Source: a virus
Taxonomy: Duplodnaviria; Caudoviricetes
Direction: 5' to 3' (one strand)
IMG/VR virus record: IMGVR_UViG_3300020045_004928
Coordinates: 1 to 60,285 of that record
Length of the DNA stretch: 60,285 bases
Part shown: in pieces, positions 5,217-38,689 of the stretch
Layout of the letters: every line of letters begins with the position of its first letter
Position numbering within the stretch: position 1 is the first letter of the stretch
The notes under the pieces: generated by a model
Told to the model about the DNA's origin: nothing
Database searches by the model: none
Seen by the model: only the letters and a program-made list of their open reading frames with translations
Program-made: the position numbers and the translations under genes

Positions 5217-8200
5217 ATGACACCCGCAGATGATTTAGAATTAATTCTCTTCGGAGAAGCGCCTACAAAACCAAAGACCGCAGCCGCGCCAGCCGTGGCC
5301 CAGCCACAAGATGAGCTGTCTGCGATCCTCTTTCCGTCAGAAAATCTCGTAAACGCACAGCCAACTTATGAGAACGCAAGGCCTTCTTCGCCCGGATTTA
5401 TGGGCGGCATTAAAGATGAAGTTCTAAATGTCAAAGATGATCTCGATGCGGGAACTAGAGAACTCGGAAACGCAGCGGTTTCAGCTGCTATGCTTTATGG
5501 GCAGATGGACCCTGTAGAAGCTGCCGATTTTATCACTTCCAATCGCCAAGCTGCCGATATGGCCAGATCCTCGCGCTCAGAATCTTTGCAGCGTGACATG
5601 GAAACAATTCAAAGCTCGGACGGATTTCTTGACGCAGCCAAAAACGTCATTACAAATCCACGCGCAGCTGCTCACCTTTCCATTGAAAACCTTCCTTATT
5701 CAGCTCCCGGCATGATGGCCGCAGCTGGCGGTGCCGCGACCGGTGCCGCTGCCGGTGCCGCTACTGGCCCAGCTGCTCCTGTTATGGCTCCAATCGGAGC
5801 TGTCACTGGCGCCGTTGCTGGTGGATTTGCCGGTCAGGTTCCAGTCGAAGTCGGCGCATGGGTTGATCAGGCCTTGCAAGAAAGAGGCGTAGATATATCG
5901 ACGCGAGAAGGTCGTATTGCGGCTTATAGCGATAGAGCCATGATGGACGAAATTCGTGGAGAAGCTGAACGTAAAGGTATCACGACAGCTGCCGTCGATT
6001 CTCTATGGAATATTTTTGCAGGTTCCAAATTATTCAAGTCGGCTGGAACAAGCTTTCCAAGCAGGGTTGTTGCTGGAGCAAAAGATACCGGCCTTCAAAT
6101 GGTTGGTGAATCTGCCAGTGAAGGCGCAGGACAGCTCGCAGCTTACAAAGGCGATACCAGCAAGATAAACACAACAGACATTGCGCTTGAAGGGCTTTTG
6201 TCTGCTCCACAAGCTATAGCTGAAACTGGCGTAGGTCTTATGGTTCGTAATCAGATCCAAGGATCAGCGCAACCTCCGGCCAATGGCCAAACCTCACAAG
6301 ATAATGCGGAAGCTGTGCAAACAGCTGATGCCATCCCTCCGGTAGCTACAGCTCCGGAGGTCAAAGTTCCTACCCGTGATGATCTCGCGGCTGCCATGCA
6401 GAACCCGGAGGCACCTCTTCAAACTTCAAGCCCTCAATCCAATGCTGCACAGACGCCCTCTCCGATTATCACCCCTGACGCGGCTACTCCAATAGTTGCG
6501 CCTACCCCACAGGGATTCGCTTACGGTCAGACCGTTGAGCAAGTTAATCGGTTCGGTGAAGTGGTCGAAGGTACCGTTCAGGGTGTTCAAAATACCGCTG
6601 ACGGGATATCTATCACAATCAAAGACCGTGACGGAAATGTGGGTACCATTTTTGACAGTGAAGGTCCAATCGAAATCAGGGCGAAATCTGCTCCGACTGG
6701 ACCGACCAGAAGTGATCTGGAAGCTGCCTTAAATGGGGAAAAACCGATCTCGCCTACCGCTCCGGTGCAAATGGAAATGGCTGCTGGGCCACCGCCGCAA
6801 ACAGCGGCCCAGACACCACCAATGCAGGAGCAGCCACTTTCGCTCCCTGAATTACAAAAAAGATTAGAAACAGTTAAGGCTGGGGCTAAATTTAAGGGTT
6901 GGGATAAGAATTCTCTGGCCATGCGCGATAACCTGCAAGGTCAAATAGACCTGTTACAGAGCGCCCAATTGCCTGTTACAGAGGTTGTTCAGCCTGTAGC
7001 AAAGCCTCCGACATTCAAAGAGCAGCTGCCGACCATGACGGAAGATCAGCTGGTCGAGATTTACCGTGGCAAAAACCGTCAAAAGCGCGAATTGGCCGCA
7101 GCTGAAATCAAAGCTCGTTTCCCGGAAAACAACTTTACTGGAGCGATAGATGTGCAAGATGCAGCCGGTCAGGTCAATACAGCGCCTACTGACGGTCAAA
7201 AAGAGGCCGGAAACTACAAAAAAGGCCATGTAAAGATCAACGGCATGGATATTGCCATTGAAAACCCGCAAGGAAGCATGCGATCCGGCAAGGATAAGGA
7301 CGGAAACGCATGGGAAGTGGCCATGCCAGCCCATTACGGCTATGTGAAGCGCACTGTCGGCGCTGATAATGAGAATATGGACGTTTATATCGGAAGTAAT
7401 ATAGACGCGCCGGAAGTTTACGTGGTCGACCAGGTGCATGCCGATACCCAGGATTTTGACGAACACAAAGCTATGATTGGCTTTAATTCCATTCAGGAAG
7501 CGGTCGACGCCTATTCCGGTGCCTTTTCCGATGGTCGTGGCGGTGAGCGCCATGGTGGCGTCACGGTAATGACCGTTCAGGAATTCAAAGACTGGCTGAA
7601 AGGCGACCAGACCAAGAAGCCTCTGGTTTATAAAAAGCCGGAAGCTCCTAAAAAAGATATCCCAAGCGAAGCAGAACCGCAGAAGGCGGCTCTTACCGGG
7701 GAAACTGAGCCACAGAACGCGGTTCAGACCCAAGACGATAAACCAAGCGTCGATCAGGAAGCCTCGCTCCAGAACCCATATTTTTCCAATTTTAAGGATG
7801 CGCAGGAACGCGCCTTCATGCTGGCGACCAAAAATCAGGATGAAATTGCCGCTTCGATCAATATGGCGCTGTCAATTGTGGATGATGCGGCCCAGCTTGA
7901 CGTCGAAATCGATCCTGCATTGAAGAGACAGGCCGATGTTTTGGCAAAAAGATACTTTGCATGGCTCGATAAAGACGCCTTTGCTTTCAAAACCGCCACT
8001 TCTGAAAACGCCGGGAAGGCTTTCATTGATTCTGCCAAGAAACTTAAAGCTTTGGCTGATAAAATGGATAAGAAAATTGACGACCGCGCCCGTGAAGAAA
8101 GTCAAATAGAACCTGAGAATAATTCTGATCTGAGCTCCTATCAACAGGATGAGGATAAAGTTATCCCGGATGAAGTTGCTGAAAAACCACAGGAAACCGA

Positions 8201-11200
8201 AGTTGCTTCCCGTGAAACGCCTGAAAATGTGGATAATTCAGCCCCAACTGTGGCCGATCAGCCACAGCCTGTTGCAGAAACATCACAGTATAAGCCAGAA
8301 AGTTCCCAAGAAACTGAAAATAATCCACAGGAAAACACACTGTCCAAGACCAAACAAATGGTCAAGGACTACGTTGAAGCCAAAAACGCCAATGGTTTGC
8401 GCGGCATCCTATCTAATCTGGATAACAAACAATCACGCGCATACTTCGCCGAATTAACGGGCATCAAGCTTCCCAAAACTGTCAAGGCCACTAATGAGGC
8501 GATTGATACCTTTGCTGGCATCACGACCGATCAGAGAGCCAAAATGGACGCTGATAAGGCTGATGCGGCAGATACAAAGAAGCAGGAGCGCGACGAGCTT
8601 TGGTGGGGAAATATCCTTTCTAAAATGCCGACAGATGGTGGCAGCAACGTCAAGGCATGGATAGATGGGCTTATTGCAGAAGGCTACAACCGCGTCGTTA
8701 GCCAGAAAAACGGAGCAACAACAAATTATGTTTTAGTGAATGAAACGGGCCGAGGTTACAAAATAAGCGGCTTAAAAGGTGGTCGCTCAGAGATATGGAA
8801 GTACGCTAAAGCCGTAACTGAACGCATGGCAAAAGGGCAGGAAGCCCCGTTCATTCCAAATATGCCAGCCGAAAAAGCATCTAGTTTTGAGCCGGAAGCT
8901 GCTAATAGCTCACCAGTTTCAGAAGAAGTTAAAAGTACAGACAATCCGGATAGTCCGGACAATTCTGCGCCGGAGCGCCGGAGCTTTGACCTTATACCTG
9001 ATGATGCAGAGAACCGATCTCCGCAAATTCAAAAGCTTGTCGATGGACGAAACGCACTTCGCAAATTTGCCAATGAGCTTTCAGATGAGGATTACGCTTA
9101 CCTCGCTAAGACTTTAAAATCAGAATATGGCGCGAATTTTCCGCAAGACGCGGCAACTTCAAACGAACCTGAGAAATCTCTCAAGATCTGGCAGGAAACT
9201 TTAGATGCCCACAAAAAACCAGCTGCGCCGAAAAAACCCGCAGCTGAAAAGCCAAAAACCCAAGAAGAACCGGCTGCCGACAAGGTTGCCGATTTTGGTG
9301 AGAAGATCCAAGGCGCGAAAAAAGATCTATGGACTGGCTACAAGGACACTTTGAAGGAAGAGCTTCCAGAAGATCTGGCACAGATTACCCTGGCTAAACA
9401 TTTCCCAGAGCCAAATTACGAGAACCTGATTGAGAACGGCGTTGAGATCCCGGCGCTTGCTGCGATCAAAGCCATGCGTGATCTCATCCCTGCGAAGCCT
9501 CGCGTATCATACAAGCTGAAAGATTGGGCTGCCGCAGTTAAATCGACACGCTTAATGGCCAACTCTTTGCTGACCGGCACTCTTAAATTCAGCGATCTAA
9601 CTCAAAAATTCGGTGAATCCAGAAGCCGCATCTTGCGTGACATGCCTGATAAAATTCAGCTTTACGTGGATCTGGGATATCCGGCTTTCACAAAAGCAAA
9701 AGAATACTCAATCCATCCTTCTGATGGAGCATACGAGAACGGCGTAAAAATCGACCGTCGCCAGTGGTTCGTGACCAAAGGCAACAGATACGGCGACAGA
9801 TACGAAACGTATGAGGATGCTTTAAAAGCTCTGCGTGATAAGCTATCAGCTGATGAAGGTCCAAAAGCCAAGCTTGTAAAGTTCGACATTTATCGCGTCA
9901 CATCAACCGGCGATATCGTCGTTGGTAAAAAGATTGCAGCTGGCAAATATGTCGATTTGCAAAAAGGCTTTAAGACTGGACGTGAAGCGCGTGAATATCT
10001 CAGTGAAAATTACGACGATCTGGTAAAGCGTCTTGAAGATAAGAAGAACCTGCCGCCAGAGCGCCGAAGCATAAACGATCCTCGCGTTGGTGAGGATTAC
10101 CGTCAGGGCGAAGATGTCACTCCTGAAATGTTTGCCAAAGAATTCGGATTCCGTGGCGTTCAGTTTGGTAACTACGTTGAGCAAAAACGTCGTGTCAAAG
10201 ATCTTAATAACGCCTTTGATGCTTTGCGTGATATGGCGACCGTTCTTGGAATTCCACCACGGGCTGTTTCTCTTGAAGGTACTCTGGGCCTTGCGTTTGG
10301 TGCGCGGGGATCTGGTGGGGTAAATCCGGCAGCTGCTCACTATGAGCGCGGTCATGTCGTTATCAATCTTACCAAAATGAACGGTGCAGGATCTCTCGGC
10401 CATGAGTGGTGGCATGCAATGGATCATAACTTCGGTAAGCGTCGTGAAGGTCCGGATTATTTGACAGCTGCTCCGCGTCAGAAAGAAAAGAATAAAGACG
10501 GCACGATTGCTGAGCCTACAATTCGTCCAGAAGTGGTTGAAGCTTTCGCTGGCGTTATGAAGGCCATCAAAGGATCAACTATGGTTAAGAGAGCCAAGGA
10601 AGCCGACAAAACACGCGGCAAGGATTACTGGTCCACCGATATCGAGATGTCGGCCCGTTCGTTTGAAAAATACCTGATCGATAAAGCCAAAGAGCGCGGA
10701 TATTCAAACGACTATCTATCGAACATCGTGCCTGAGAAAGCTTTCACCGATAAAGAAGGTAATGTCAGCGACGACTTCCAATATCCGACCACGAAGGACA
10801 TGGAAACAATTGGCCCTGCTTTCGACAAGCTGTTTGCAACTATCGAGAACAAAGAAACTGACAAAGGCGTGGCGCTGTATTCCGCTGCTCCGCTTAAATC
10901 CGCGTTGGTAAAAACCGTTGATAGCCTGAAACAGGCGAAGGGTTCCGGAGAACAGATGCTTGCGATCATTCGCAACACGCAAGGCGTCAAAGAAGAAGAA
11001 ATCGCATGGACAGGCCTGGACGACTTCTTGGCTGAAAAAAAGACCGTTACGAAGCAGGAAATCGCTGATTATCTGGCTGCAAATCAGGTGAATATTCGTG
11101 AAACAACTCTTAGCTCATCAGCGTTGCCTGATGGTTGGTACACAGAAGAAAATGACGAAGGATGGGTGGTTTTAGATGAATTCCATGATACCCGTGGCGA

Positions 11201-14200
11201 AGGACTAACTGAACAGGAGGCCATCGAGAATTCTGGTACTTTCTCAAATGAAAGTGCGGAAGGAAGTGGCGGTACTAAATTCTCCCAATACACTCTCCCC
11301 GGTGGCACGAATTACCGTGAGCTGCTTATCCAGATGCCGGTCGATAACGAAAAAACCTATACGGCGCGGATAACTCCTGGCATTGGTCCTCACGATGTTC
11401 TTGATGATATTCTGGGAGATATAAGCTCAGAAGGCATGGAAGATCTTGATTATGGTCGAGATTCCGACAGGCCAGAAATCCATATTACCAATTTCACTCA
11501 AACCCAGTTTGATAAGATCAAAGAGATTATCGCGCAATATCCTGATGCAAGAATGTACGATACTCACACTATTGGCGACAAAGAAACATTCAGTTCATCT
11601 CACTTTGATCAAAGCAATATCCTGACACATGTACGCCTGAACGACCGCACCGACGCTGATGGCAAAAAGGTTTTGTTCGTTGAGGAAATACAATCTGACT
11701 GGCATCAGGCTGGCCGGAAAAAGGGGTATAAAACCAAAAAAGAGATTCCTGACGGCTACACCCTTATAGACGTAAATGCCGAAGATAGAGCTGATGGTTT
11801 CCCTGTACCAGAAGACGCTTCTGAGAAATGGAGATTCAAAGGGCCAGATGTAAGTTCTCGCATATATAATAGCCGAGAAGAAGCCGTTAGTGCCATTTGG
11901 AAAGAAGCGGAAATGGGCGACGAAATCGGCGTTCCTGATGCCCCATTCAAAAAATCATGGCACGAAATGGCCTTCCGTCGCGTTGTGCAGATGGCGGCAG
12001 ATCAGGGCTATGACCGTGTAGCCTGGACGACTGGTGAGCAGCAAAATGAGCGTTATGACCTGAGCAAACACGTTGATAAAATAGAGGTTGATAAAGTTGG
12101 CGGTGAATATCGCGTTCTAGCATTTGACAAAGGCGGCACGAGAGTAATTAACGAAACTGCCAAAGATGCCGATGCTCTTTCTGATATCATAGGTAAAGAT
12201 GCAACTGAGAAAGCTATCGAGAAACTAGAAAACCAAAATCTTGCGATACTGCAAGGGGTTGATTTAAAAGTCGGTGGCACCGGCATGAAAGGCTTCTACG
12301 ACGATATCCTTGTCAAATACGCCAACAAGTTCGGGAAGAAGTTTGGCGCAAAAGTTTCTGACACCTCATTTAATGAAAATGTCGGAACCGGAAAGATGGT
12401 TTATAGCGGACCCGAAGCTACGCTTGAACAGGTAACAGAAGTATTTGATATCTCTAAAGGCCACAACAATGTTTTCAAGAGTCCGATAACCGGCGAGAAA
12501 ATGGAATATTCTCTGACGCGGGTTGCTGTTGAAAATCCAATGCGGAATATCACTCAGGCAATGGAAAATGGGAAAAGCTTCAAAGAGGCTTTTTCTCAGT
12601 ACGGAAGTGATGAGATAGCCAGAATTTTTGGTGGCACGGCAGAATGGGGCAAGAGAAACGAAACTTTTGAAATTCATTCCCTTGATATCACGCCAGAAAT
12701 GCGCCAAGCGGCCAAAGAAGGCTTGCCACTGTTCAGAATGGGCGGCGAGAAGATCGAGGTTGATCCGAAAGCAAAAGCACGGATCGAGGGTGAAATTAAC
12801 AAGCAGCTCAAGCAGCTGGGATATCCGCAAGCAGCTGTCCGTCTTGTCAATGACACAGGCGAAGTTGATGGCCTTATGGCTGGCGCACAGGGCGCTTATT
12901 ACAAAGGCCTGATATTCCTTTCCATGCAAGCTGAGAACGTCGTGAACACTCTGACGCATGAAGTCGTACACGATTTACGAGCAGCTGGAGCTTTCACGAA
13001 AGGCGAATGGAATTTGCTGGCCGAGAAGGCAAAAAAATGGCGCACTGAGTTCGATATCGATAGCCGGTATAAATCACAGAAGCTTACCGAAGAGCAGCTG
13101 ACGGAAGAAGCGATTGCAGACGGTATTGCCAATCACAACGATGCTGGCGGTCCTATCGGTCGTATTATCAAGCGCATTGAGCGTTTCATGCGCGGAATCC
13201 GTCAAGCCCTGACTGGCAAGCCGTTAGAATTCAAAACTGCCGAGGACATCATCGAAGCTGTACGCAGCGGCGAAATGACGAAACGTGCGAAGGACAAATA
13301 CGCCAAGGATAATGGGCCTATTTATGACGCTGCCCTGAATAAACCTGATAAGGTTCTGTATTCTCTCCCGCTTAACAAAAAGCAAGCCCTCAAAGAAGCC
13401 GACGACATGCTGATGTCGGTGCGCGGATATAACCAAGGATTCCGGGCAAGCTTGGGAAAAGTTTCGTCATACTTCTTACACCCGCACCAGATAGCGTCCC
13501 TGTATAAATCTTTTACGCCTGTTTACACGCAAGCGATCAAGATGATGCAGTTCAGGGATAAGCTGGTTCACGATCTGTCCGAAACACTGGATCTGTATAA
13601 CAAGATCGATGGCGTATCGAAAAAGAATATTGATGCAGTCATTGAAATTGGTCGTTTAAGCGGCAAGAACTTCAAGCCTACCAATGGCGAGATCGTTGTG
13701 AAGAATGAAGATATCGACACAGCGCATCACAGCAAAATGGGTGAGACAATCACGCTTTCAGGCATTGAGGTCGAGGCCTATGAAGGCGTCCGGAAAACCA
13801 TGGATAAGGCGCTTGATACCTACAAGCAAGTTATTCTGGAGGAATTCGGTTACTGGAAAGACGGCATAAAAACCAAAGAAGATCTATCAAAGGCTTTGGC
13901 AAAAGAAACAGATCCGGATGAGGCTTCCCGTAAGCAACAGGCTATAAAAATGCTTGACGATATTGATGCAGCCAAACGCAAGGGATATGTCCCGTTCAAG
14001 CGTTGGGGACAGGTCGGTATTTCTGTTCGTGAGAAGGATGGCGACAAAGAACTTAAAGTATTTGAGCGCGTCGAGGTTTCGAAGATCAAGAATTTCCGCA
14101 AAGAGAAAATCGCTGAAAACAAGATTGTTAAAGAGAAGCTTCTGGAGCTGAGAAATAAATATCCGGCCAGTGGTTACGATATCGATGTGTTTGAAGTGAA

Positions 14201-16127
14201 AGATTTCACAGATCTGCAATCGAAAATGGATCTTAACGAGCTTGATGTCTTGGCTGCCAGCTCCGATATGAGCGATAAAGATTACAGCAGCTTGCGCAGT
14301 ATGCTTTCTGATGCTCTAAAACGTCGCGGGTTCCGTCAGCATTTTTTCAAGGCGTCAGATGTTCCTGGCTACAGTGCAGACTTTGAACGTGCGCTTAATG
14401 ATTATGTTGTCAGTATCTCTGGCCACTTATCACGCCGTATGTTCAATGACAAACTCGATCAGGCAATCAAGGATATCGAGACAGCCGGTGAACCGACGCT
14501 GTTCGATTATGCTCAGAAATACGTGAAGTATATCAACGAGCCGACCGAGGAATTCGGTGCAGTTCGTCAGATGGCGTTTATCTGGTACCTAGCCGGGAAT
14601 ATTGCATCAGGCGTAACCAACGCCATGCAGCCAGCTATGGTAACGGCTCCTTGGTTTAAAGCTATGTTCAGCCATGCCGATATCGCCAAGCAGATGTCAC
14701 GGGCTTACAAAGATGCAGCTGTGATGATCACTCCGAAAGCCGGGATCGATGTGTTCAATCTCGATAAAGCTCCTGATGATATTCGTGATGCCCTGAAACT
14801 GGCTGATGAGACAGGCCTGTTCATTCCGTTGGCAACTAACGATGCAATGGCAATCTCACGCACAAACAAGGCTTACCTGCGCGGTCTGGATCGCAAGATC
14901 CGCAACGCTCAAGATGTTCTGGCTGTGACCTTCTCGGTACCGGAGCGCGTCAACAGGCTTGTGACATTCACTTCCGCTTACAGATTTGCAATCAAGCCTG
15001 AAAACAAAAAGAAGATTATGGCTTTCATTAACCGTGATCAGCTTGGCCGTCAGCAGCTCGAAGGTCTTGAAGGAAAAAACTTTGCAGCTGCTTTTGCCGA
15101 ATACACGGTTTACAGCACTCAGCTTCGTATGGGTAAAATGAACCGTCCGATATTGTCACGCGGTTTTGGTACCTTACCATTTCAGTTCCTATCATTCTCA
15201 ATGCAAGCTCTGGAGCTGATGTACCGATTGAAACAAATCCACGGAGCTAAATCAGGTCAGGCGCTTGGCTTCATGCTTTTCGCGGTCGTGGCAATGGCAG
15301 GATATCAAGGTTTTCCATTCGAAAAAGATATACAAAAACTATTTGAAGCGGCTTACAAGCGTTTGACAGGCGTTGATATGGACGTTGACAGTGAAATGCG
15401 CAAGCTGCTCTCTGAACACATTGGATCAACTGCCACTAATGCAATTATGAAAGGTATTCCTTATGCGCTTCTCAATGTTGATATGTCTGGGCGTCTTGGC
15501 TTCGGCAACATTGTCCCTGACGATCAAGCAGACCTGTATGGTGTCTGGTATAACATGCTGTTCGAAAACCCAGCGAAAGCAGCTGATAGTTTAAGCCGTG
15601 GCAATGTCGTCCAGGCGATTGCTGATATCTCGCCTACCTTCCTGAAAAACGTCTTAACGGCGCAGGAATGGCAAACGGATGGCGTAAGATCCGGGACCAC
15701 CGGCAAAGTCATTATCGAGAAAGATAGCCTTGAAAAAGAAGATATCTGGCTAAAGCGGTTTGGTTTCACCTCTGCCAGCGTAGCGCGTGAACGTGAGCGC
15801 ATTTATGCCGACCAGAGGGCTTCACATGCCGTCGATAACCTTAGAAACAACTATTACTCCGAGCTGACACGCGCCTACGCTATGCGCAGGAAAATGAGTA
15901 TCGAGGGCGATACAGAAGCGTCTGCCCTTTATCAGCAAAAGATTAAAGACATTATGGACGAAATACGCGAATATAATCAGGGCGCACCGCTTTTCAAACA
16001 GGTGTTGATCAGCGAAAAAACACTTAAACAGCGTCTTAAACAGGAGATTAAGGGAAGCGAAGCCTTCAAGCCTCGTAAACAAGCCAGACAAAATTCTAAG
16101 GAATTAGATAAAGCATACGGTAAATAA
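5217..16127 (+). CDS. Giant polyvalent internal virion protein (inorganic-pyrophosphatase-like, LPD5/LPD1-like, two HExxH motifs, PLxRFG-like C-terminal region)
   Basis: 3636 aa; GNYKKGH..IENP.GS.RSG..W...M..HYGY...T.GAD...DV (~7200-7600); DFGEKIQGAKKD (~9290); FGFRGVQFGNY/HEWWHAMD/YWS..EMSARSFE (~10140-10670); EEIQSDWHQ (~11680); HEVVH (~12960); YVPFKRWG (~13985). Confidence 0.8.
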   Translation: MTPADDLELILFGEAPTKPKTAAAPAVAQPQDELSAILFPSENLVNAQPTYENARPSSPGFMGGIKDEVLNVKDDLDAGTRELGNAAVSAAMLYGQMDPVEAADFITSNRQAADMARSSRSESLQRDMETIQSSDGFLDAAKNVITNPRAAAHLSIENLPYSAPGMMAAAGGAATGAAAGAATGPAAPVMAPIGAVTGAVAGGFAGQVPVEVGAWVDQALQERGVDISTREGRIAAYSDRAMMDEIRGEAERKGITTAAVDSLWNIFAGSKLFKSAGTSFPSRVVAGAKDTGLQMVGESASEGAGQLAAYKGDTSKINTTDIALEGLLSAPQAIAETGVGLMVRNQIQGSAQPPANGQTSQDNAEAVQTADAIPPVATAPEVKVPTRDDLAAAMQNPEAPLQTSSPQSNAAQTPSPIITPDAATPIVAPTPQGFAYGQTVEQVNRFGEVVEGTVQGVQNTADGISITIKDRDGNVGTIFDSEGPIEIRAKSAPTGPTRSDLEAALNGEKPISPTAPVQMEMAAGPPPQTAAQTPPMQEQPLSLPELQKRLETVKAGAKFKGWDKNSLAMRDNLQGQIDLLQSAQLPVTEVVQPVAKPPTFKEQLPTMTEDQLVEIYRGKNRQKRELAAAEIKARFPENNFTGAIDVQDAAGQVNTAPTDGQKEAGNYKKGHVKINGMDIAIENPQGSMRSGKDKDGNAWEVAMPAHYGYVKRTVGADNENMDVYIGSNIDAPEVYVVDQVHADTQDFDEHKAMIGFNSIQEAVDAYSGAFSDGRGGERHGGVTVMTVQEFKDWLKGDQTKKPLVYKKPEAPKKDIPSEAEPQKAALTGETEPQNAVQTQDDKPSVDQEASLQNPYFSNFKDAQERAFMLATKNQDEIAASINMALSIVDDAAQLDVEIDPALKRQADVLAKRYFAWLDKDAFAFKTATSENAGKAFIDSAKKLKALADKMDKKIDDRAREESQIEPENNSDLSSYQQDEDKVIPDEVAEKPQETEVASRETPENVDNSAPTVADQPQPVAETSQYKPESSQETENNPQENTLSKTKQMVKDYVEAKNANGLRGILSNLDNKQSRAYFAELTGIKLPKTVKATNEAIDTFAGITTDQRAKMDADKADAADTKKQERDELWWGNILSKMPTDGGSNVKAWIDGLIAEGYNRVVSQKNGATTNYVLVNETGRGYKISGLKGGRSEIWKYAKAVTERMAKGQEAPFIPNMPAEKASSFEPEAANSSPVSEEVKSTDNPDSPDNSAPERRSFDLIPDDAENRSPQIQKLVDGRNALRKFANELSDEDYAYLAKTLKSEYGANFPQDAATSNEPEKSLKIWQETLDAHKKPAAPKKPAAEKPKTQEEPAADKVADFGEKIQGAKKDLWTGYKDTLKEELPEDLAQITLAKHFPEPNYENLIENGVEIPALAAIKAMRDLIPAKPRVSYKLKDWAAAVKSTRLMANSLLTGTLKFSDLTQKFGESRSRILRDMPDKIQLYVDLGYPAFTKAKEYSIHPSDGAYENGVKIDRRQWFVTKGNRYGDRYETYEDALKALRDKLSADEGPKAKLVKFDIYRVTSTGDIVVGKKIAAGKYVDLQKGFKTGREAREYLSENYDDLVKRLEDKKNLPPERRSINDPRVGEDYRQGEDVTPEMFAKEFGFRGVQFGNYVEQKRRVKDLNNAFDALRDMATVLGIPPRAVSLEGTLGLAFGARGSGGVNPAAAHYERGHVVINLTKMNGAGSLGHEWWHAMDHNFGKRREGPDYLTAAPRQKEKNKDGTIAEPTIRPEVVEAFAGVMKAIKGSTMVKRAKEADKTRGKDYWSTDIEMSARSFEKYLIDKAKERGYSNDYLSNIVPEKAFTDKEGNVSDDFQYPTTKDMETIGPAFDKLFATIENKETDKGVALYSAAPLKSALVKTVDSLKQAKGSGEQMLAIIRNTQGVKEEEIAWTGLDDFLAEKKTVTKQEIADYLAANQVNIRETTLSSSALPDGWYTEENDEGWVVLDEFHDTRGEGLTEQEAIENSGTFSNESAEGSGGTKFSQYTLPGGTNYRELLIQMPVDNEKTYTARITPGIGPHDVLDDILGDISSEGMEDLDYGRDSDRPEIHITNFTQTQFDKIKEIIAQYPDARMYDTHTIGDKETFSSSHFDQSNILTHVRLNDRTDADGKKVLFVEEIQSDWHQAGRKKGYKTKKEIPDGYTLIDVNAEDRADGFPVPEDASEKWRFKGPDVSSRIYNSREEAVSAIWKEAEMGDEIGVPDAPFKKSWHEMAFRRVVQMAADQGYDRVAWTTGEQQNERYDLSKHVDKIEVDKVGGEYRVLAFDKGGTRVINETAKDADALSDIIGKDATEKAIEKLENQNLAILQGVDLKVGGTGMKGFYDDILVKYANKFGKKFGAKVSDTSFNENVGTGKMVYSGPEATLEQVTEVFDISKGHNNVFKSPITGEKMEYSLTRVAVENPMRNITQAMENGKSFKEAFSQYGSDEIARIFGGTAEWGKRNETFEIHSLDITPEMRQAAKEGLPLFRMGGEKIEVDPKAKARIEGEINKQLKQLGYPQAAVRLVNDTGEVDGLMAGAQGAYYKGLIFLSMQAENVVNTLTHEVVHDLRAAGAFTKGEWNLLAEKAKKWRTEFDIDSRYKSQKLTEEQLTEEAIADGIANHNDAGGPIGRIIKRIERFMRGIRQALTGKPLEFKTAEDIIEAVRSGEMTKRAKDKYAKDNGPIYDAALNKPDKVLYSLPLNKKQALKEADDMLMSVRGYNQGFRASLGKVSSYFLHPHQIASLYKSFTPVYTQAIKMMQFRDKLVHDLSETLDLYNKIDGVSKKNIDAVIEIGRLSGKNFKPTNGEIVVKNEDIDTAHHSKMGETITLSGIEVEAYEGVRKTMDKALDTYKQVILEEFGYWKDGIKTKEDLSKALAKETDPDEASRKQQAIKMLDDIDAAKRKGYVPFKRWGQVGISVREKDGDKELKVFERVEVSKIKNFRKEKIAENKIVKEKLLELRNKYPASGYDIDVFEVKDFTDLQSKMDLNELDVLAASSDMSDKDYSSLRSMLSDALKRRGFRQHFFKASDVPGYSADFERALNDYVVSISGHLSRRMFNDKLDQAIKDIETAGEPTLFDYAQKYVKYINEPTEEFGAVRQMAFIWYLAGNIASGVTNAMQPAMVTAPWFKAMFSHADIAKQMSRAYKDAAVMITPKAGIDVFNLDKAPDDIRDALKLADETGLFIPLATNDAMAISRTNKAYLRGLDRKIRNAQDVLAVTFSVPERVNRLVTFTSAYRFAIKPENKKKIMAFINRDQLGRQQLEGLEGKNFAAAFAEYTVYSTQLRMGKMNRPILSRGFGTLPFQFLSFSMQALELMYRLKQIHGAKSGQALGFMLFAVVAMAGYQGFPFEKDIQKLFEAAYKRLTGVDMDVDSEMRKLLSEHIGSTATNAIMKGIPYALLNVDMSGRLGFGNIVPDDQADLYGVWYNMLFENPAKAADSLSRGNVVQAIADISPTFLKNVLTAQEWQTDGVRSGTTGKVIIEKDSLEKEDIWLKRFGFTSASVARERERIYADQRASHAVDNLRNNYYSELTRAYAMRRKMSIEGDTEASALYQQKIKDIMDEIREYNQGAPLFKQVLISEKTLKQRLKQEIKGSEAFKPRKQARQNSKELDKAYGK

Positions 16128-28111: not shown

Positions 28112-28788
28112 AGGTCGTTATCGGTGATGCAACTCTGTACCTGGGCGACGCTTACGAGATTGCGCCTACACTTGGTTTCTTCGATGGCCTTGTCACAGAT
28201 CCGCAGTACGATTTTAAAACATCTGGCGGCGGCAAAATGCGGAAAGAGCGGAAATGTCTTGAAAAGATTATCGAGAAAGGTCTGGATCAGGGTTTCGACC
28301 ACCGAATAATTAATCCGCTGCTTTACCGTTCCCTCGCGGTATTCTGCCATAACGATCAGCTGCATAAGCTTTTGCCATTTATAGCCGGAAGCTTTAAGCG
28401 CCACGTTTTATGCACATGGGAGAAATCGAATCCTATGCCAGTAGCAAACAAAAATTTCCAAGCAGATCTTGAACCTTATATTTTTGCCTGGAATAACGGT
28501 GGCCATCCAGTCGGAGAACTTGCAGACAAAAAGCGCACGATTCGCACCACCAATGGAAAATCTAAATTTGATCACCCGACCGTTAAGCCGCTAGAGGTTA
28601 TGAACAAAATTGTCAAAAACATTAACGGTAATCGAATACTTGATACTTTCATGGGGACCGGAAGTACAGGCATAGCAGCTTTATCTCAAGGCAAGGAATT
28701 TGTCGGCATAGAACGCGATCAGGAATATTTTGAAATAGCTGTGAAAAGATTTGAAGATTTCTATTGCTTTTCTAAAAGCAACGAGTAA
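28108..28788 (+). CDS. Beta-class amino (N6A/N4C) DNA methyltransferase
   Basis: LYLGD, motif IV variant DPQY, HPTVKP, motif I DTFMGTGSTG, GIE. Confidence 0.8.
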   Translation: MKVVIGDATLYLGDAYEIAPTLGFFDGLVTDPQYDFKTSGGGKMRKERKCLEKIIEKGLDQGFDHRIINPLLYRSLAVFCHNDQLHKLLPFIAGSFKRHVLCTWEKSNPMPVANKNFQADLEPYIFAWNNGGHPVGELADKKRTIRTTNGKSKFDHPTVKPLEVMNKIVKNINGNRILDTFMGTGSTGIAALSQGKEFVGIERDQEYFEIAVKRFEDFYCFSKSNE

Positions 28789-29229: not shown

Positions 29230-30159
29230 ATGACTGCCGAATTACAAGAAAAACAAGAACCAGCAAAAAGCTACCCATCATCTGAGCTGGTTCAAAAAGT
29301 TATCGACAATATATCGCCTGATATTGCTGAGATCGACATCAATGGCGTTAAGGCTGCTGTCATTTTTGTGCCAAAGGGCATGGAAGTGAAAAGTGCGAAA
29401 ACAATTATCGATGAATACAAAATCAAGCCTGATCGCAGAACAGGAACCCATACTGTTCACCGCGTATCTTCTTTTATCGCACTTTTCAATCGCTTCAAGG
29501 CTCCTGAGTCTGTGGTGTTTGCGGAAGCATCTATCACTGACAACAGCATAAACGCTTCCCTCACGGGAATTCTTGATTTTCACCCAGCGACGGCTGTTAA
29601 TACGGAAGCTTCTAACGGTGGACACAAGCTGCTGTATAAATTCCCGATCTCCAGCATGTTTGCTAAATGGCTCAAGACAAATGGCGAAGTAATGGATCAG
29701 GAAGAATTTGCTGTTTTCTTGGAAGATCACATTGGCGAAATCTCTGTTGCCAGCTCTATCGAAAAAGAATCCATGGCAAATCTGTCAGCCAAGTTTGCAG
29801 AGCCTCTGGAAATCCTTTCTCTGGCGCGTGAACTGGCTATCTACTCGAATGAAACTATCGAGCAGAGCTACAAGCCTTCCAGCGGTGAACGCAAGATCAA
29901 GTTCAGTGTTCAGCACAAGGACTCCAATAACAATGAAATCTCTATTCCCGATTTCTTTGTTATCACGGTTCCAATGTTTGAAGCTGGAGAACAACAGCGC
30001 ATTATCGTCAAACTGCGCTACCGTAAATCTAGCGGTCGCATTGTCTGGTTCTACGAACTTTACCGCGTTGATAAAATGTTGGAAGCTGCTTTTGATCAGA
30101 CGATTACCGAAGTTGAGGCGGGAACAGAAGCCCCGCTATTCGTGGGTAAGTCTGCCTAA
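29230..30159 (+). CDS. DUF2303/YfdQ-like protein
   Basis: PDRRTGT..SF, ILDFH, MDQEEFAVFLED, IPDFF..PMFE, LRYR. Confidence 0.75.
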   Translation: MTAELQEKQEPAKSYPSSELVQKVIDNISPDIAEIDINGVKAAVIFVPKGMEVKSAKTIIDEYKIKPDRRTGTHTVHRVSSFIALFNRFKAPESVVFAEASITDNSINASLTGILDFHPATAVNTEASNGGHKLLYKFPISSMFAKWLKTNGEVMDQEEFAVFLEDHIGEISVASSIEKESMANLSAKFAEPLEILSLARELAIYSNETIEQSYKPSSGERKIKFSVQHKDSNNNEISIPDFFVITVPMFEAGEQQRIIVKLRYRKSSGRIVWFYELYRVDKMLEAAFDQTITEVEAGTEAPLFVGKSA

Positions 30160-30193
30160 CCTTTAACCCCAACCCTCCCGAAAGGAGATATAC

Positions 30194-30379
30194 ATGAATA
30201 ACGAACAAGACAAGCCAGCAGATGAAGCTCCAGCAACGGAATCCTCCGAAGCATCAACAGAGACAGCTGCGACAGAAACCCAACCACCAGTTGATAATGA
30301 TTACGTTGAAGAAGGCGCGACAAAATTTACTGATGAAGAAGTAGATCTTAACAAACCACAAGATCAAGCCTCCTCATAA
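30194..30379 (+). CDS. Small acidic, probably disordered peptide (61 aa)
   Basis: Strong RBS gaaaggagatatacATG; E/D/T/A-rich. Confidence 0.65.
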   Translation: MNNEQDKPADEAPATESSEASTETAATETQPPVDNDYVEEGATKFTDEEVDLNKPQDQASS

Positions 30380-30385
30380 GGCGGT

Positions 30386-30431
30386 CGTTTCTTTGAAATC
30401 CCGGTTCAAGCCGACCGGGATTTTTATGAAC
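30386..30431 (+). terminator. Hairpin module copy 1 (terminator or processing stem)
   Basis: cgtttctttga-AATCCCGGT..ACCGGGATT-tttatgaac. Confidence 0.6.
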
Positions 30432-30905
30432 CGAAAGGATCACCTACTTTCTCCCCCCAGAAAGGCTCCGGCTGGCATGGTGTCAGCCGGGGTTCTGGGA
30501 GAATAAAATACCCAAGCGAAAGGGAGGCGTCGATCCAGTTAAGTTATCCGACATAAGCAATAAGTCGGTGAAGATATCTGGGGAGCTGAACGAGTAGGGC
30601 TGTGGAGCCGTTACCACAGGGGGAACGCCACCTCATCTCAGGCGTGACGACCGGAGGATCTCTGGTTAGCTGGTGAGAGGACCAGCGCCTTTCTTTGTAT
30701 GCTGTGTGTAGTGGGTTTGAGGTAGTTCAGGATTGCGCGAAAGCCTGACCGGAATGGGTGTAAGTCCCTTGGCCTCCAACCAATGCCCAGCGGTGCGGTC
30801 TGGTCCGAATGAAGCCATTGGCTCGGATGATCTAAGACGCCTCGCACAGCAGACATGGACAGGTTCGGAACACCGGAAACGGAAAGAATTGGCCTATCCT
30901 TACTG
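30432..30905 (+). ncRNA. Putative large structured non-coding RNA, family unknown
   Basis: No credible ORF; dense hairpins, GNRA and T-loop motifs; long-range stems GAGGCGTC/GACGCCTC and TGCTGTGTG/CGCACAGCA. Confidence 0.55.
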
Positions 30906-30944
30906 CGTAACTGAGTTTTAACCCAAGCCTCACAGGAGACACCT

Positions 30945-31040
30945 ATGGCCGCTACAGTAAAAAAAGCAGTTAAAAAAACTGCAACTAAAAAACCAGCAAC
31001 AAAAAAGGCTCCGGCCAAGAAAGTTGCCGCTAAGAAATAA
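30945..31040 (+). CDS. Histone H1-like Lys/Ala-rich peptide (31 aa, not in ORF track)
   Basis: RBS caggagacacctATG; MAATVKKAVKKTATKKPATKKAPAKKVAAKK*. Confidence 0.75.
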   Translation: MAATVKKAVKKTATKKPATKKAPAKKVAAKK

Positions 31041-31045
31041 GCGCC

Positions 31046-31096
31046 CGTTTTTTGAAGTCCCCGTCTAATCTATAAGCGGCGGGGATTTTTATGAAC
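31046..31096 (+). terminator. Hairpin module copy 2
   Basis: cgttttttga-AGTCCCCGTC..GGCGGGGATT-tttatgaac; flanks nearly identical to copy 1. Confidence 0.6.
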
Positions 31097-31213
31097 AGGT
31101 GGCGGAATAGTTAGACGCTGAAAGTCGAAAGGCAAAGCTGGACAACCTAATGGCAAAAAACATTAGGATTGGAGGCCCAGCGTAATACGGGGTTAGAATC
31201 CCCGTCCTGTTCA
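31093..31213 (+). ncRNA. tRNA-like RNA with Leu/Ser-type D arm and enlarged central domain
   Basis: Acceptor GAACAGG/CCTGTTC; D arm GCG-GAATAGTTAGA-CGC; T arm ACGGGG-TTAGAAT-CCCCGT; 68-nt branched insert instead of a normal anticodon arm. Confidence 0.7.
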
Positions 31214-31243
31214 GCACTGAAACTTTAACGAAGGACTACAACT

Positions 31244-31480
31244 ATGATCTGTCTAGTAAACGGCCCAGAAGGCCAACGTCTGATAAAAGCGAAGAGTAAC
31301 CAAGCGGCAATCGATTTTGTCGTTGCTGAACGCTTCACCAGCAAAGCTGTAAATTCGGATGAGCTTTATGAGCTTACGACGAAGAGCGGCCTGAAAGTCG
31401 AAGAAGCTCCTGAAAAGATCATCCAAGGTATCGGATCTGTTCAAGCGGCTGTCGAATCTACAGGAGGCGCTAATGGCTAA
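31244..31480 (+). CDS. Phage hypothetical protein
   Basis: RBS gaagga; RLIKAKSNQAAI..DELYEL..GLKVEEA. Confidence 0.65.
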   Translation: MICLVNGPEGQRLIKAKSNQAAIDFVVAERFTSKAVNSDELYELTTKSGLKVEEAPEKIIQGIGSVQAAVESTGGANG

Positions 31481-31676
31481 AGGCAAAGTAAAATGGTTTA
31501 ACACCCAAAAAGGTTTTGGATTCATTCAGCCCGACGATGGCGGCAAAGATGTGTTTGTTCATATCTCAGCCGTTGAAAGATCCGGTCTGCGCGGTCTGAA
31601 TGAAAACCAAGTCGTTGAATACGAACTACAAACTGAAAAAGGCAAAACAGCTGCCGTCAGTTTGAAAGTTGCTTGA
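31473..31676 (+). CDS. cspA: Cold-shock protein (RNA chaperone)
   Basis: GKVKWFN..KGFGFIQPDDGGKDVFVHISAV (RNP1/RNP2); RBS aggagg. Confidence 0.95.
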   Translation: MAKGKVKWFNTQKGFGFIQPDDGGKDVFVHISAVERSGLRGLNENQVVEYELQTEKGKTAAVSLKVA

Positions 31677-31734
31677 GAAAAAAGCCAGGACGGGTTATAG
31701 TTCTATCTCCTCTTACGTGAACCTTTGAAAACGG

Positions 31735-31764
31735 AAACCCCAGCTTTAATCGGCTGGGGTTTTT
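31735..31764. terminator. Bidirectional intrinsic terminator
   Basis: AAACCCCAGC-TTTAATCG-GCTGGGGTTT-TT between convergent operons. Confidence 0.75.
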
Positions 31765-31847
31765 GTTATTGCGGCTTATTTTCTCGCTGGGCGCGGTTAT
31801 CGATCAGGCGCTTATCCAAGATCCTGCCGATCTGGTGCAGCTGGTAT

Positions 31848-38023: not shown

Positions 38024-38689
38024 TTATTCTCCTAAATTGTCGATCATGTATTTGATGGAGCCAGCCGAGTATGGCCGACCTGTTGGCTTGCCTTTTTCAA
38101 GAACCGTGAAACCATTATTTTTCATCGTTTCTGCGACCTCTCGCAAAGAAATACCCTGATTTCTAAGTTTTATTGCCATTGCAACTGCTTCTGCTGGAGG
38201 AGGTTTTCGCCCTTCACAGCGTCCAGTTATGGCTCGTTTCTTTTCTTTTCCAGAGTTTAGCTTGGAAACGAGCTGGTTTTTTTCGAACTCGGCAATGGCT
38301 CCAAGCATTGTCGAAAGAAATCTCTGTGTCGGTGTTTCATCATCGAAAGCATCAGGGGCGTTCACCGGGATAACGGAAATTCCGTGTGATTTTAGAAAAG
38401 CCAGGGCATTCATTTGAACCATAAGGTCACGGGCAAATCTATCAGGCGCTTCGACTAAAATTGTCCTAATGCCCTTGTCTCTTATTTCCCAGAATAATTT
38501 CTTAAAAGCGGGCCTTTCCATTGCTGGATCTGCCCCCTTAACGGCAGCATCATAGTATTCTCCGACGATCTCCATCGAGTGCTTTTCTGCATACCGATCA
38601 ACGGCTGCTTTTTGCCGGGATTTTGAGTCTTTATCTTCGCCAACATTGACTTGCGAAGAGGTCCGATAATAGGCGACAACTTTTTCCAT
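38024..38689 (-). CDS. Small serine recombinase (resolvase/invertase family)
   Basis: VAYYRTSS catalytic Ser; RP.F..L; LVE.PDRFARD; C-terminal helix-turn-helix-like segment. Confidence 0.85.
   Translation of the reverse strand: MEKVVAYYRTSSQVNVGEDKDSKSRQKAAVDRYAEKHSMEIVGEYYDAAVKGADPAMERPAFKKLFWEIRDKGIRTILVEAPDRFARDLMVQMNALAFLKSHGISVIPVNAPDAFDDETPTQRFLSTMLGAIAEFEKNQLVSKLNSGKEKKRAITGRCEGRKPPPAEAVAMAIKLRNQGISLREVAETMKNNGFTVLEKGKPTGRPYSAGSIKYMIDNLGE

What the first reader, a model, noticed from the sequence alone, without database searches (positions are those of the whole stretch)
30160..31764. Candidate new system: tandem peptide-hairpin-structured RNA cassette ending in CspA
Seen: the pattern repeats twice. 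Unit 1 is a leader tttaacccc..aggag, a 61-aa acidic peptide, a hairpin module and a ~470-nt structured RNA. Unit 2 is a leader ttttaaccc..aggag, a 31-aa Lys/Ala peptide, the same hairpin module and a tRNA-shaped RNA. A 78-aa ORF, cspA and a terminator follow, all downstream of an operator-bearing promoter at 28764. Established: Csp proteins melt RNA hairpins and can antiterminate; H1-like tails bind nucleic acid. Inference: a phage ribonucleoprotein or RNA-decoy module that targets host translation or RNA-cleaving defences, with CspA and oppositely charged peptides as chaperones or partners. I know no described system with this layout.
Basis: partly seen in the sequence, partly recalled or inferred. 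Interest (0 to 1): 0.8.

Follow-up and report, generated by a model that had tools for sequence, protein, structure and literature searches.

The report
tRNA-derived RNA in variable phage segment
The repeated layout is real, but it looks like a patchwork of small phage genes separated by related terminator hairpins, and its one convincing RNA is a transfer-RNA-shaped molecule with no anticodon arm.

Summary
The window is a complete 60,285-bp phage genome. The two "hairpin modules" are true paralogues. They share an exact 15-mer and have a compensatory stem change. A third, more distant copy follows cspA. They look like intrinsic terminators.

The short spacer (31093-31213) is tRNA-derived. Rfam's tRNA model aligns end to end at 23.4 bits, below the 29-bit gathering score, with E 0.0049 in a 151-nt search. 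Acceptor, D and T arms are kept. A 64-nt branched insert replaces the anticodon arm. The fold has z -4.9.

The "~470-nt structured RNA" is not supported as one unit. Only its 5' hairpin is unusually stable. A close relative lacks the central 356 nt.

Contigs of near relatives in one wastewater run swap the modules independently. No other genome searched holds the cassette. orf78 and cspA, and probably the Lys/Ala ORF, look like real genes. The acidic ORF has no homologue.

Best reading: a mosaic accessory end of an operon, punctuated by terminators and a tRNA-like processing element. An integrated peptide-RNA-CspA system is not supported.

The parts
29230..30159 (+). DUF2303 gene, the conserved gene that borders the variable segment
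   Evidence: Pfam PF10065 at 1.6e-43 and phrog_210. In relatives, 10 of the 11 listed changes fall on third codon positions. Two relatives' contigs end at 30165.
30194..30379 (+). 61-aa acidic ORF, an orphan whose coding status is uncertain
   Evidence: It has an AGGAG Shine-Dalgarno, pI 4.05 and 17 D+E. It matches no Pfam or PHROG family. A search of 5.8 billion clusters found only the protein itself.
30385..30434 (+). Hairpin H1, intrinsic-terminator type, ending in the shared 15-mer
   Evidence: Folds at -22.0 kcal/mol, z -5.41. Paralogous to H2. The simple terminator scan did not list it.
30456..30499 (+). Hairpin A, a 19-bp interrupted hairpin kept in a relative
   Evidence: The stretch 30445-30512 folds at -34.2 kcal/mol, z -4.54, with pair probabilities 0.88-0.96. 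Record 3 of run X1 retains 30447-30498.
30499..30854 (+). 356-nt GC-rich non-coding insert, absent or replaced in a close relative
   Evidence: GC is 54.5% against 46.5% for the genome. z is -0.93 on + and +0.74 on -. Record 3 of X1 skips it; my arithmetic on record lengths gives about 72 other letters in its place. The 5 ORFs tested inside it gave no PHROG match and only one Pfam match, below the curated cutoff. Rfam found nothing real.
30855..30944 (+). Conserved leader of the Lys/Ala ORF
   Evidence: Retained at about 90% and about 97% identity in records 3 and 4 of X1. Single-base insertions listed at 30895 and 30924 would frameshift any ORF that crosses them.
30945..31040 (+). 31-aa Lys/Ala-rich ORF
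   Evidence: It has an AGGAG Shine-Dalgarno and pI 11.0. The 3 listed changes in a relative are two on third positions (read from the codons as synonymous) and one on a first position (read as Thr to Ala). Its Pfam HC2 match is only E 0.11.
31045..31098 (+). Hairpin H2, paralogue of H1
   Evidence: Folds at -21.3 kcal/mol, z -4.81. Aligned with H1 in A3. The listed changes in a relative (31067-31068) lie in its loop.
31093..31213 (+). tRNA-derived RNA: acceptor, D and T arms kept, anticodon arm replaced by a 64-nt branched insert
   Evidence: RF00005 covers model positions 1-71 at 23.4 bits, E 0.0049. The MFE is a cloverleaf at -46.3 kcal/mol, z -4.91, frequency 0.36. The tRNA-type D stem costs only 1.5 kcal/mol more. 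ARAGORN finds it only at an 80% threshold with introns allowed.
31244..31480 (+). orf78, a small protein of a rare family of unknown fold, overlapping cspA by 8 nt
   Evidence: 12 homologues at 39-61% identity. All 4 listed changes fall on third positions. The AF2 model has pLDDT 80 and no PDB match.
31473..31676 (+). cspA-family cold-shock protein gene
   Evidence: PF00313 at 6.5e-25 and phrog_729. 28 viral loci encode relatives at 47-81% identity.
31730..31767 (.). Hairpin H3, the terminator that closes the rightward operon, a distant third copy of the module
   Evidence: Folds at -25.1 kcal/mol, z -4.90. Aligns with H1 and H2 at 67% mean column identity. Leftward ORFs begin just beyond it.

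Best explanation
The segment 30160-31767 is the variable, mosaic far end of a rightward phage operon. That operon carries a replication-type gene, a methylase, a phrog_204 gene and the DUF2303 gene.

The segment holds small accessory genes: an orphan acidic ORF, a Lys/Ala-rich ORF, orf78 and cspA. Each gene or gene pair ends in one of three related intrinsic-terminator-type hairpins.

The 121-nt spacer before orf78-cspA is a tRNA-derived RNA. Its acceptor stem, D arm, T arm and most core tertiary nucleotides are kept. A 64-nt three-way-junction insert stands where the anticodon arm should be, so it cannot decode.

Inferred mechanism:
- Transcription reads through the leaky hairpin H2.
- Host RNase P and the tRNA 3'-end enzymes excise the tRNA-like unit.
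- The upstream mRNA is left ending in a protective hairpin.
- The orf78-cspA mRNA starts with a short leader.
- A stable tRNA-shaped RNA is released, and its insert is the part free to vary.

The phage Csp may raise read-through of the hairpins.

The long spacer is composite, not one structured RNA. It is a conserved 19-bp hairpin, an optional 356-nt GC-rich insert, and the conserved leader of the Lys/Ala gene.

Shown here: the anatomy, the paralogy, the match to the tRNA model, and the mosaicism. Inferred: processing, read-through and stability of the RNA.
For: - **tRNA match.** RF00005 aligns over all 71 model positions with 64 nt in place of the 18 anticodon-arm positions, at 23.4 bits and E 0.0049.
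- **Core nucleotides (my reading of that alignment against standard tRNA numbering).** U8, A14, A15/U48, G18, U54, U55, A58 and G53-C61 are present. The 19-56 elbow pair is U-A instead of G-C.
- **Fold.** z -4.91, 0 of 200 shuffles as stable, MFE frequency 0.36. The tRNA-type fold lies within 1.5 kcal/mol of the MFE.
- **Changes in a ~90% relative.** Of the 4 listed changes, one turns a GAAA loop into GCAA and two turn A-U pairs into G-U (mapped on the fold).
- **Hairpins.**
- **Coding status.** Third-position bias in listed changes: DUF2303 10 of 11, orf78 4 of 4, csp 4 of 5.
- **Mosaicism.** Contigs end at 30165. The stretch 30499-30854 is skipped. 135 other letters replace 31058-31205 between flanks about 97% identical. 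183 letters replace 31277-31471.
- **Csp antitermination.** PMC4347634, passages read.
- **RNase P on non-tRNA phage RNAs.** PMC11143913, passages read.
Against: - The tRNA score is below Rfam's gathering score (23.4 against 29).
- The match appeared only when 151 nt were given. It was absent from the 1001-nt scan and both whole-window scans.
- The genome search with RF00005 on this genome gave 0 matches at E <= 10, with 4 candidates scored.
- ARAGORN finds nothing at default settings or at a 90% threshold.
- The MFE uses a different D-region pairing than the tRNA model.
- One of the 4 listed changes breaks a predicted pair (G-C to G-A). One search also cut its list: 106 further differences, across the whole 2.1-kb stretch and all three runs, are not shown.
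- No homologue of the RNA was found anywhere, so there is no covariation test.
- No RNA data exist. The 3' end reads GCA rather than CCA.
- H1-H3 were not listed by the simple terminator scan.
- No promoter was found for the units, so they do not meet the moron definition.
Confidence: 0.5

Rival explanations
1. The two units plus orf78 and cspA are one ribonucleoprotein or RNA-decoy system. The acidic and basic peptides and CspA act as partners or chaperones of two dedicated structured RNAs. The system targets host translation or RNA-cleaving defences.
For: The layout repeats with paralogous hairpins. One RNA is tRNA-shaped, which would suit a decoy for tRNA-targeting enzymes. Csp proteins melt RNA structure (PMC4347634). 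Everything lies on one strand with no detected internal promoter.
Against: The parts are exchanged independently among near-identical relatives. The acidic peptide is an orphan. RNA1 is not one stable unit and a relative lacks most of it. No other locus among 106 loci, 42 metagenome loci or 48 sources combines these parts.
Confidence: 0.08
2. The tRNA-like element is a decaying phage tRNA gene, a pseudo-tRNA with an insertion. The whole segment is recombination debris between terminators, with no RNA-level function.
For: The score is below the tRNA gathering score. There is no anticodon arm, C56 is changed, and CCA is not encoded. The region is highly mosaic. Most of RNA1 is no more stable than shuffles. 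No homologues were found.
Against: Acceptor stem (8 bp in the MFE) and T stem (6 bp) are perfect, and the fold is very well defined (MFE frequency 0.36, z -4.91). The insert is itself tightly structured. By my reading, both sides of the 19-56 pair are changed so that a Watson-Crick pair remains. 3 of the 4 listed changes in a relative preserve structure.
Confidence: 0.2
3. The two spacers are long cis-acting 5' leaders. RNA1 would control the Lys/Ala gene and RNA2 would control orf78-cspA, for example as thermosensors like the cspA 5'UTR. They would not be excised as stable RNAs.
For: Both spacers lie directly upstream of Shine-Dalgarno-bearing ORFs. The 3' 90 nt of RNA1 are conserved together with the Lys/Ala ORF. 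A sigma-70-like 9-of-12 match lies at 30480-30509.
Against: The RF01766 sub-threshold match (38.5 bits against 78) covers 31362-31766, so it does not include RNA2. The tRNA-like fold leaves the Shine-Dalgarno of orf78 outside the structure. No promoter was found between H2 and RNA2.
Confidence: 0.12
4. RNA1 (about 30427-30920) is a new large ornate structured RNA of the kind found in phages, such as GOLLD or ROOL, and is simply too rare to have relatives in the collections.
For: GC is 54% against 46.5% for the genome. No coding signal was found. Several high-probability helices and a 19-bp long-range closing helix are predicted. The + strand folds 25 kcal/mol better than the - strand. The 556-nt stretch 30380-30935, which includes terminator H1, has z -2.66.
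Against: The stability signal comes from the first ~170 nt. The central 356 nt gives z -0.93 and domain 30687-30864 gives z -1.59. In the first 28 kb of this genome, mostly ORF-covered, 11 of 378 windows reach z <= -3. A relative lacks the central 356 nt. Rfam found nothing with a plausible E-value.
Confidence: 0.1

Closest known systems
Phage-encoded tRNAs and tRNA-like stable RNAs
   Same: Examples are the T-even 'tRNA-like molecules' and the RNase P-processed phage RNAs M3 and C4. The first was seen in the reference list of PMC11143913 and the others in passages of that review. T4 species 1 and 2 RNAs are recalled only. Like these, the element here sits in a phage operon and has an acceptor-T minihelix of the kind RNase P recognises. 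It has U at -1, G1-C72 and discriminator A. It follows and precedes other genes on one transcript.
   Different: It has no anticodon arm; a 64-nt three-way junction stands in its place. Its T stem is 6 bp, C56 is A, and CCA is not encoded. Processing was not tested. It scores below the tRNA gathering score.
tRNA-like punctuation elements
   Same: Examples are plant mitochondrial t-elements (PMC1920247, listing and abstract start only) and mascRNA (Rfam RF01684, weak match at E 0.71). Like these, it is a tRNA-shaped unit inside a longer transcript that could define mRNA ends when tRNA-processing enzymes cut it out.
   Different: Those are eukaryotic or organellar. The match to RF01684 is not significant.
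tRNA-like domain of tmRNA
   Same: The topology matches: acceptor, then a D-loop analogue, then a long helix replacing the anticodon arm, then the T arm. The insert contains a short open frame that starts with GCA.
   Different: ARAGORN's tmRNA search found nothing even at an 80% threshold. The 3-70 pair is A-U, not G-U. The element is 121 nt, whereas tmRNAs are roughly 230-400 nt (recalled). The candidate tag does not end in the usual Ala-Ala.
Phage morons and repeated regulatory cassettes
   Same: Morons were read in passages of PMC3594210. The promoter-stem-loop cassettes of T4-type hyperplastic regions are recalled only. Like these, the segment holds small accessory genes each closed by a terminator. 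The non-coding insert differs in GC, presence varies among close relatives, and repeated hairpins could serve as recombination joints.
   Different: No unit has a detectable promoter of its own. The genes lie at the end of an operon rather than inside a late operon.
Phage-borne csp genes of lambdoid phages
   Same: It is a cold-shock-domain gene carried as an accessory gene. The matched stretch (query positions 1313-1430 of the segment) is 74-83% identical in the listed phage records, among them Escherichia phages annotated CspI or CspG.
   Different: In those records only the csp coding part matches. The upstream RNA, orf78 and the hairpins do not.

Membership tests
tRNA (Rfam RF00005) | Score at or above the curated gathering score (29 bits) | tested here: not met
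   It scores 23.4 bits, E 0.0049, in a 151-nt search. It is not reported in the whole-window scans or by the genome search on this genome.
tRNA (Rfam RF00005) | 7-bp acceptor stem with discriminator base, and a T arm with a 7-nt loop carrying U54, U55 and A58 | tested here: met
   The alignment and the fold show these. The T stem has one extra pair, and position 56 is A.
tRNA (Rfam RF00005) | D arm with A14 and G18 that can pair as in a tRNA | tested here: inconclusive
   It aligns to the model. The MFE uses another pairing. The tRNA-type D stem is 1.5 kcal/mol less stable and has probability 0.12.
tRNA (Rfam RF00005) | Anticodon arm: a 5-bp stem with a 7-nt loop | tested here: not met
   64 nt forming a three-way junction stand in place of the 18 model positions. 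ARAGORN calls an intron-bearing tRNA only at an 80% threshold, where it reported 4 such calls in the 1 kb scanned.
tmRNA | Detected by ARAGORN's tmRNA search; G3-U70 pair; tag frame ending in Ala-Ala | tested here: not met
   ARAGORN -m found nothing at default or at 80%. Read directly from the sequence, the 3-70 pair is A-U and the candidate frame ends Gly-Pro-Ala.
Intrinsic (Rho-independent) terminator | GC-rich stem-loop followed directly by a run of U | tested here: inconclusive
   H1, H2 and H3 fold at -21 to -25 kcal/mol with z about -5. The sequence shows runs of 5 T after each. The simple consensus scan listed none of the three. Termination itself was not tested.
Cold-shock protein (CspA family, PF00313) | Cold-shock domain over the whole ~67-aa protein, above the Pfam cutoff | tested here: met
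   87.2 bits against a cutoff of 27, E 6.5e-25, residues 3-64.
Phage moron | Own promoter and own terminator; GC differs from the surroundings; absent from related phages | tested here: inconclusive
   Terminator-type hairpins are present. Presence varies among relatives. The insert is 54.5% GC against 46.5% for the genome. No convincing promoter precedes any unit.
Known large phage-associated RNAs (GOLLD, ROOL and others in Rfam 15) | Match to the family's covariance model | tested here: not met
   No Rfam family matched 30425-30925 at E <= 10 except a chance TarA match on the - strand at E 9.2.

The most novel reading that the evidence does not exclude
The 121-nt element is a natural tRNA scaffold. 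The phage keeps the tRNA core so that host enzymes process and stabilise the RNA. It uses the place of the anticodon arm to display an exchangeable effector domain. That domain could be an aptamer or decoy aimed at a host tRNA-binding or tRNA-cleaving defence, or at a regulator.

The replacement of this exact stretch by 135 unrelated letters between flanks about 97% identical in a sister phage would then reflect allele swapping under an arms race.
Probability: 0.15. Interest if true: 0.75.

Novelty: new variant of a known kind. Interest (0 to 1): 0.4.

Why it matters
If the tRNA-like unit is processed and stable, it would be a bacterial-virus example of a tRNA core re-used as a carrier for another RNA domain. 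Engineers copy this design, and it is known from a few eukaryotic and viral transcripts, but it is little documented in phages.

It would also show how a phage can punctuate a polycistronic message using the host's tRNA-processing enzymes.

The paralogous terminator hairpins at module borders give a concrete case of how small accessory genes and RNAs are shuffled between nearly identical phages.

The broader claim of a new peptide-RNA-CspA system does not hold on present evidence. The finding is therefore of moderate interest, not high.

Tried and rejected
**Searches for homologues of the cassette (all negative)**
- Phage records by distant blastn: 22 records matched, and every listed match lies within the csp part.
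- Plasmids: no match.
- blastn and nhmmer against 106 fetched loci: only matches of 33 nt or less, at E 0.007 or weaker.
- 42 metagenome DUF2303 loci, 24 of which have at least 1 kb downstream by my count from the table: no DNA match. tblastn found nothing for the acidic ORF, the Lys/Ala ORF, orf78 or Csp. The 122-aa neighbour matched in 8 loci.
- One genome contigs locus, L079: the phrog_204-like and DUF2303 pair is followed by unrelated genes.
- L002: coding DNA directly follows DUF2303.

**Exact-pattern scans of viral contigs**
- 72 hits, 1 hit and 2 hits respectively. All look like chance matches.

**orf78 searches**
- Viral contigs: none.
- With alignment A5: 2 loci, both false positives inside another gene.
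- Phages and plasmids by tblastn: none.
- Its 12 homologues lie on Logan or ENA contigs that I could not fetch.

**Other tests that led nowhere**
- Single-sequence covariance model R1: among the 48 other sources only a chance hit at E 3.2.
- Antisense targets of RNA1 or RNA2 in the phage: only chance-level matches of 15 nt or less.
- orf78 fold: no PDB match by Foldseek (best E 2.0) or VIA-align (best Z 2.2). Atlas leads score under 0.9.
- Complex prediction for Csp plus orf78: no answer.
- The look-up of sequencing runs: no RNA holder listed. One DNA run held 0.13 of the words.
- The - strand 126-aa ORF and the + strand 62-aa ORF inside RNA1: rejected. They match no family above cutoff, and the single-base insertions listed at 30895 and 30924 in relatives' contigs fall inside them (30895 in both, 30924 in the 126-aa ORF only).
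- Group I or II intron, RNase P RNA, riboswitch and other Rfam families: no match.

Full report
**Context**

The window is a complete IMG/VR virus record of 60,285 bp with direct terminal repeats. It encodes small and large terminase subunits, portal, major head protein, a 3,636-aa virion-type giant protein, an exonuclease VIII-like protein and a small serine recombinase.

The finding lies at the end of a rightward gene block: a primosomal/replication-type protein, an N6/N4 methylase, a phrog_204 protein and DUF2303. Beyond 31767 the ORFs run leftward.

**Observation**

Every listed feature is in the sequence.
- The 61-aa ORF has pI 4.05 with 17 acidic residues.
- The 31-aa ORF has 12 Lys and 9 Ala, pI 11.0.
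- Both have AGGAG Shine-Dalgarno sequences.
- orf78 overlaps cspA by 8 nt.
- cspA is a full cold-shock domain (6.5e-25).

The two hairpin modules are paralogues.
- An exact 15-mer occurs at 30417 and 31082 and nowhere else in the genome.
- 45 columns of their 78-column alignment are invariant. The stem shows a G-C to C-G swap on both sides.

The hairpin after cspA is a third, more distant copy. All three fold at -21 to -25 kcal/mol with z about -5 and end in five T. I read them as intrinsic terminators. However, the simple consensus scan listed none of them, and termination was not tested.

The shared leader is only a TTTAAC hexamer. A longer version of it is not enriched: 4 matches against 3.67 expected.

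At 28765-28782 there is a palindrome, but the scan found no promoter there.

**The short spacer is tRNA-derived**

- ARAGORN at default settings and Rfam at gathering thresholds find nothing.
- Folded alone, 31092-31216 gives a four-arm cloverleaf at -46.3 kcal/mol. It has z -4.91, none of 200 shuffles is as stable, and the MFE is 36% of the ensemble.
- When only 151 nt were given to cmscan, the tRNA model RF00005 aligned over all 71 positions. It scored 23.4 bits against a gathering score of 29, E 0.0049. 64 nt stand where the model has its 18 anticodon-arm positions.
- Reading that alignment against standard tRNA numbering (established knowledge), U8, A14, A15/U48, G18, U54, U55, A58 and G53-C61 are present. 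The 19-56 elbow pair is U-A instead of G-C, so both sides are changed and a Watson-Crick pair remains.
- The tRNA-type D stem competes with a longer stem used in the MFE and costs only 1.5 kcal/mol.

Evidence against a true tRNA:
- The score is sub-threshold.
- The match was not reported in the 1001-nt or whole-window scans.
- The genome search with RF00005 on this genome gave no match at E <= 10, with 4 candidates scored.
- ARAGORN calls it only at an 80% threshold with introns allowed, where it reported 4 such calls in the 1 kb scanned.
- There is no anticodon arm, so it cannot be a decoding tRNA.
- It fails the tmRNA tests (A3-U70 read from the sequence).

**The long spacer is not one structured RNA**

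- The 556-nt stretch 30380-30935, which includes terminator H1, has z -2.66. In 150-nt windows only 30376-30525 (-4.75) and 30451-30600 (-3.17) stand out. Windows across 30526-30900 give z from -1.15 to +1.08.
- For scale, 11 of 378 windows over the first 28 kb of this genome (mostly ORF-covered) reach z <= -3, with 20 shuffles each.
- The stable part is terminator H1 plus a 19-bp hairpin at 30456-30499.
- The Y-shaped domain 30687-30864 has high pair probabilities but z of only -1.59.
- The central 356 nt has z -0.93 on + and +0.74 on -.
- The region is GC-rich: 54% against 46.5% for the genome.
- The 5 ORFs tested inside it gave no PHROG match and only one Pfam match, below the curated cutoff.
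- No Rfam family matches.

**Relatives**

No collection held the cassette (see Tried and rejected). The DUF2303 gene and its 122-aa neighbour travel together in distant relatives, but different genes follow them.

One wastewater run holds contigs 90-97% identical to the flanks. They show the following.
- Two contigs end at 30165, right after the DUF2303 stop codon.
- One contig keeps 30447-30498 and 30855-31276 at about 90% identity but skips 30499-30854. My arithmetic on record lengths gives about 72 other letters in between. It is unlike this phage upstream of 30447. It has 183 other letters in place of 31277-31471.
- Another contig is about 97% identical over 30857-31057 and 31206-31377. 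It has 135 other letters in place of 31058-31205, which is hairpin H2 plus the tRNA-like RNA up to its T arm.

So the modules are exchanged independently, with break-points at or near the repeated hairpins.

The listed substitutions:
- DUF2303: 10 of 11 on third codon positions.
- orf78: 4 of 4.
- csp: 4 of 5.
- Lys/Ala ORF: 2 of 3, with the third a first-position change that I read as Thr to Ala.

Single-base insertions at 30895 and 30924 rule out the ORFs that cross RNA1's 3' part.

In the tRNA-like RNA, of the 4 listed changes:
- one keeps a GNRA loop (GAAA to GCAA);
- two turn A-U into G-U;
- one breaks the end pair of a 3-bp helix.

One search cut its list: 106 further differences, across the whole stretch and all runs, are not shown. 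This count is therefore partial.

**Proteins**

- The acidic ORF has no homologue among 5.8 billion clusters.
- orf78 belongs to a rare family. It has 12 homologues at 39-61% identity, with a conserved ~58-aa N-terminal domain and an acidic tail.
- The confident AF2 model (pLDDT 80) is a beta-hairpin plus two helices and matches no solved fold.

**Mechanism**

I commit to the following at about 0.5 confidence. This is the mosaic accessory end of an operon.
- Read-through of the leaky hairpins H1 and H2 carries RNA polymerase into the tRNA-like unit.
- RNase P and the tRNA 3'-end enzymes cut the unit out. RNase P is known to process non-tRNA phage RNAs (PMC11143913, passages).
- The upstream message is left with a 3' hairpin, and the orf78-cspA message gets a short leader.
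- The released RNA keeps a tRNA core, with a free 64-nt domain of unknown target.

Csp proteins prevent terminator formation in E. coli (PMC4347634, passages). The phage Csp may therefore feed back on H1 and H2.

All of these steps are inferred. None was measured.

**Comparison and novelty**

tRNA-like candidates are already reported in bulk from IMG/VR (PMC10690425, abstract and passages; supplements not seen). A tRNA core with the anticodon arm replaced by a branched domain, placed between a terminator and a csp operon, is a new variant of that kind and not a new kind.

I ran five literature searches. None of the listings or passages I read describes this layout. The searches were few and not exhaustive.

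The moron concept fits only in part (PMC3594210, passages). Terminators and variable presence are there, but no unit has its own promoter.

**Verdict**

The system-level interpretation is not supported. One component, the tRNA-derived RNA, is worth a bench test. Interest: 0.4.

Noticed in passing
window 5217-16127 (+): A single 3,636-aa ORF. Its PHROG matches are phrog_616 (2e-117), a DarB-like antirestriction family (2.7e-47), and families annotated endolysin and minor head protein. It is probably a giant multi-domain virion or ejected protein.
   Followed up: partly
window 31362-31766 (+): In the whole-window E-value scan, Rfam's cspA thermoregulator model RF01766 matches at 38.5 bits (gathering 78, E 2e-6). 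The match spans the end of orf78 and all of cspA, and does not reach the tRNA-like spacer.
   Followed up: no
window 28765-28782: A palindrome with 8-bp arms lies inside the 3' end of the methylase gene. A weak -35/-10 pair with a 15-nt spacer can be read by eye, but the scan listed no promoter there.
   Followed up: partly
window 30480-30509 (+): A sigma-70-like match (9 of 12, with an 18-nt spacer) overlaps the 3' half of hairpin A. If it is active, part of the long spacer would be a 5' leader of the Lys/Ala ORF.
   Followed up: no
window 30617-30686: A 168-nt, low-depth contig from a second wastewater run aligns here with 9 other letters and 4 gaps over 70 nt (record 7). It may be chance, or a fragment shared with another organism.
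   Followed up: no
L079 3505-4819: An 18,967-bp contig binned with an uncultured Acidobacteriaceae genome carries the same phrog_204-like plus DUF2303 gene pair, at 47% identity. A 294-aa ORF lies just upstream and a large-terminase-like ORF lies further downstream; I read both by eye, with no family search. No csp or RNA cassette follows the pair.
   Followed up: partly
window 30427-30506 and 31089-31112: Both spacers begin with ATGAAC inside the shared 15-mer, giving short frames that both start Met-Asn-Arg (26 aa and 7 aa). No Shine-Dalgarno precedes them. This is probably a by-product of the duplication.
   Followed up: no
window 38024-38689 (-): A 220-aa small serine recombinase or invertase (phrog_95 and phrog_125) sits in a genome with direct terminal repeats. 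The phage's lifestyle and host remain unknown.
   Followed up: no
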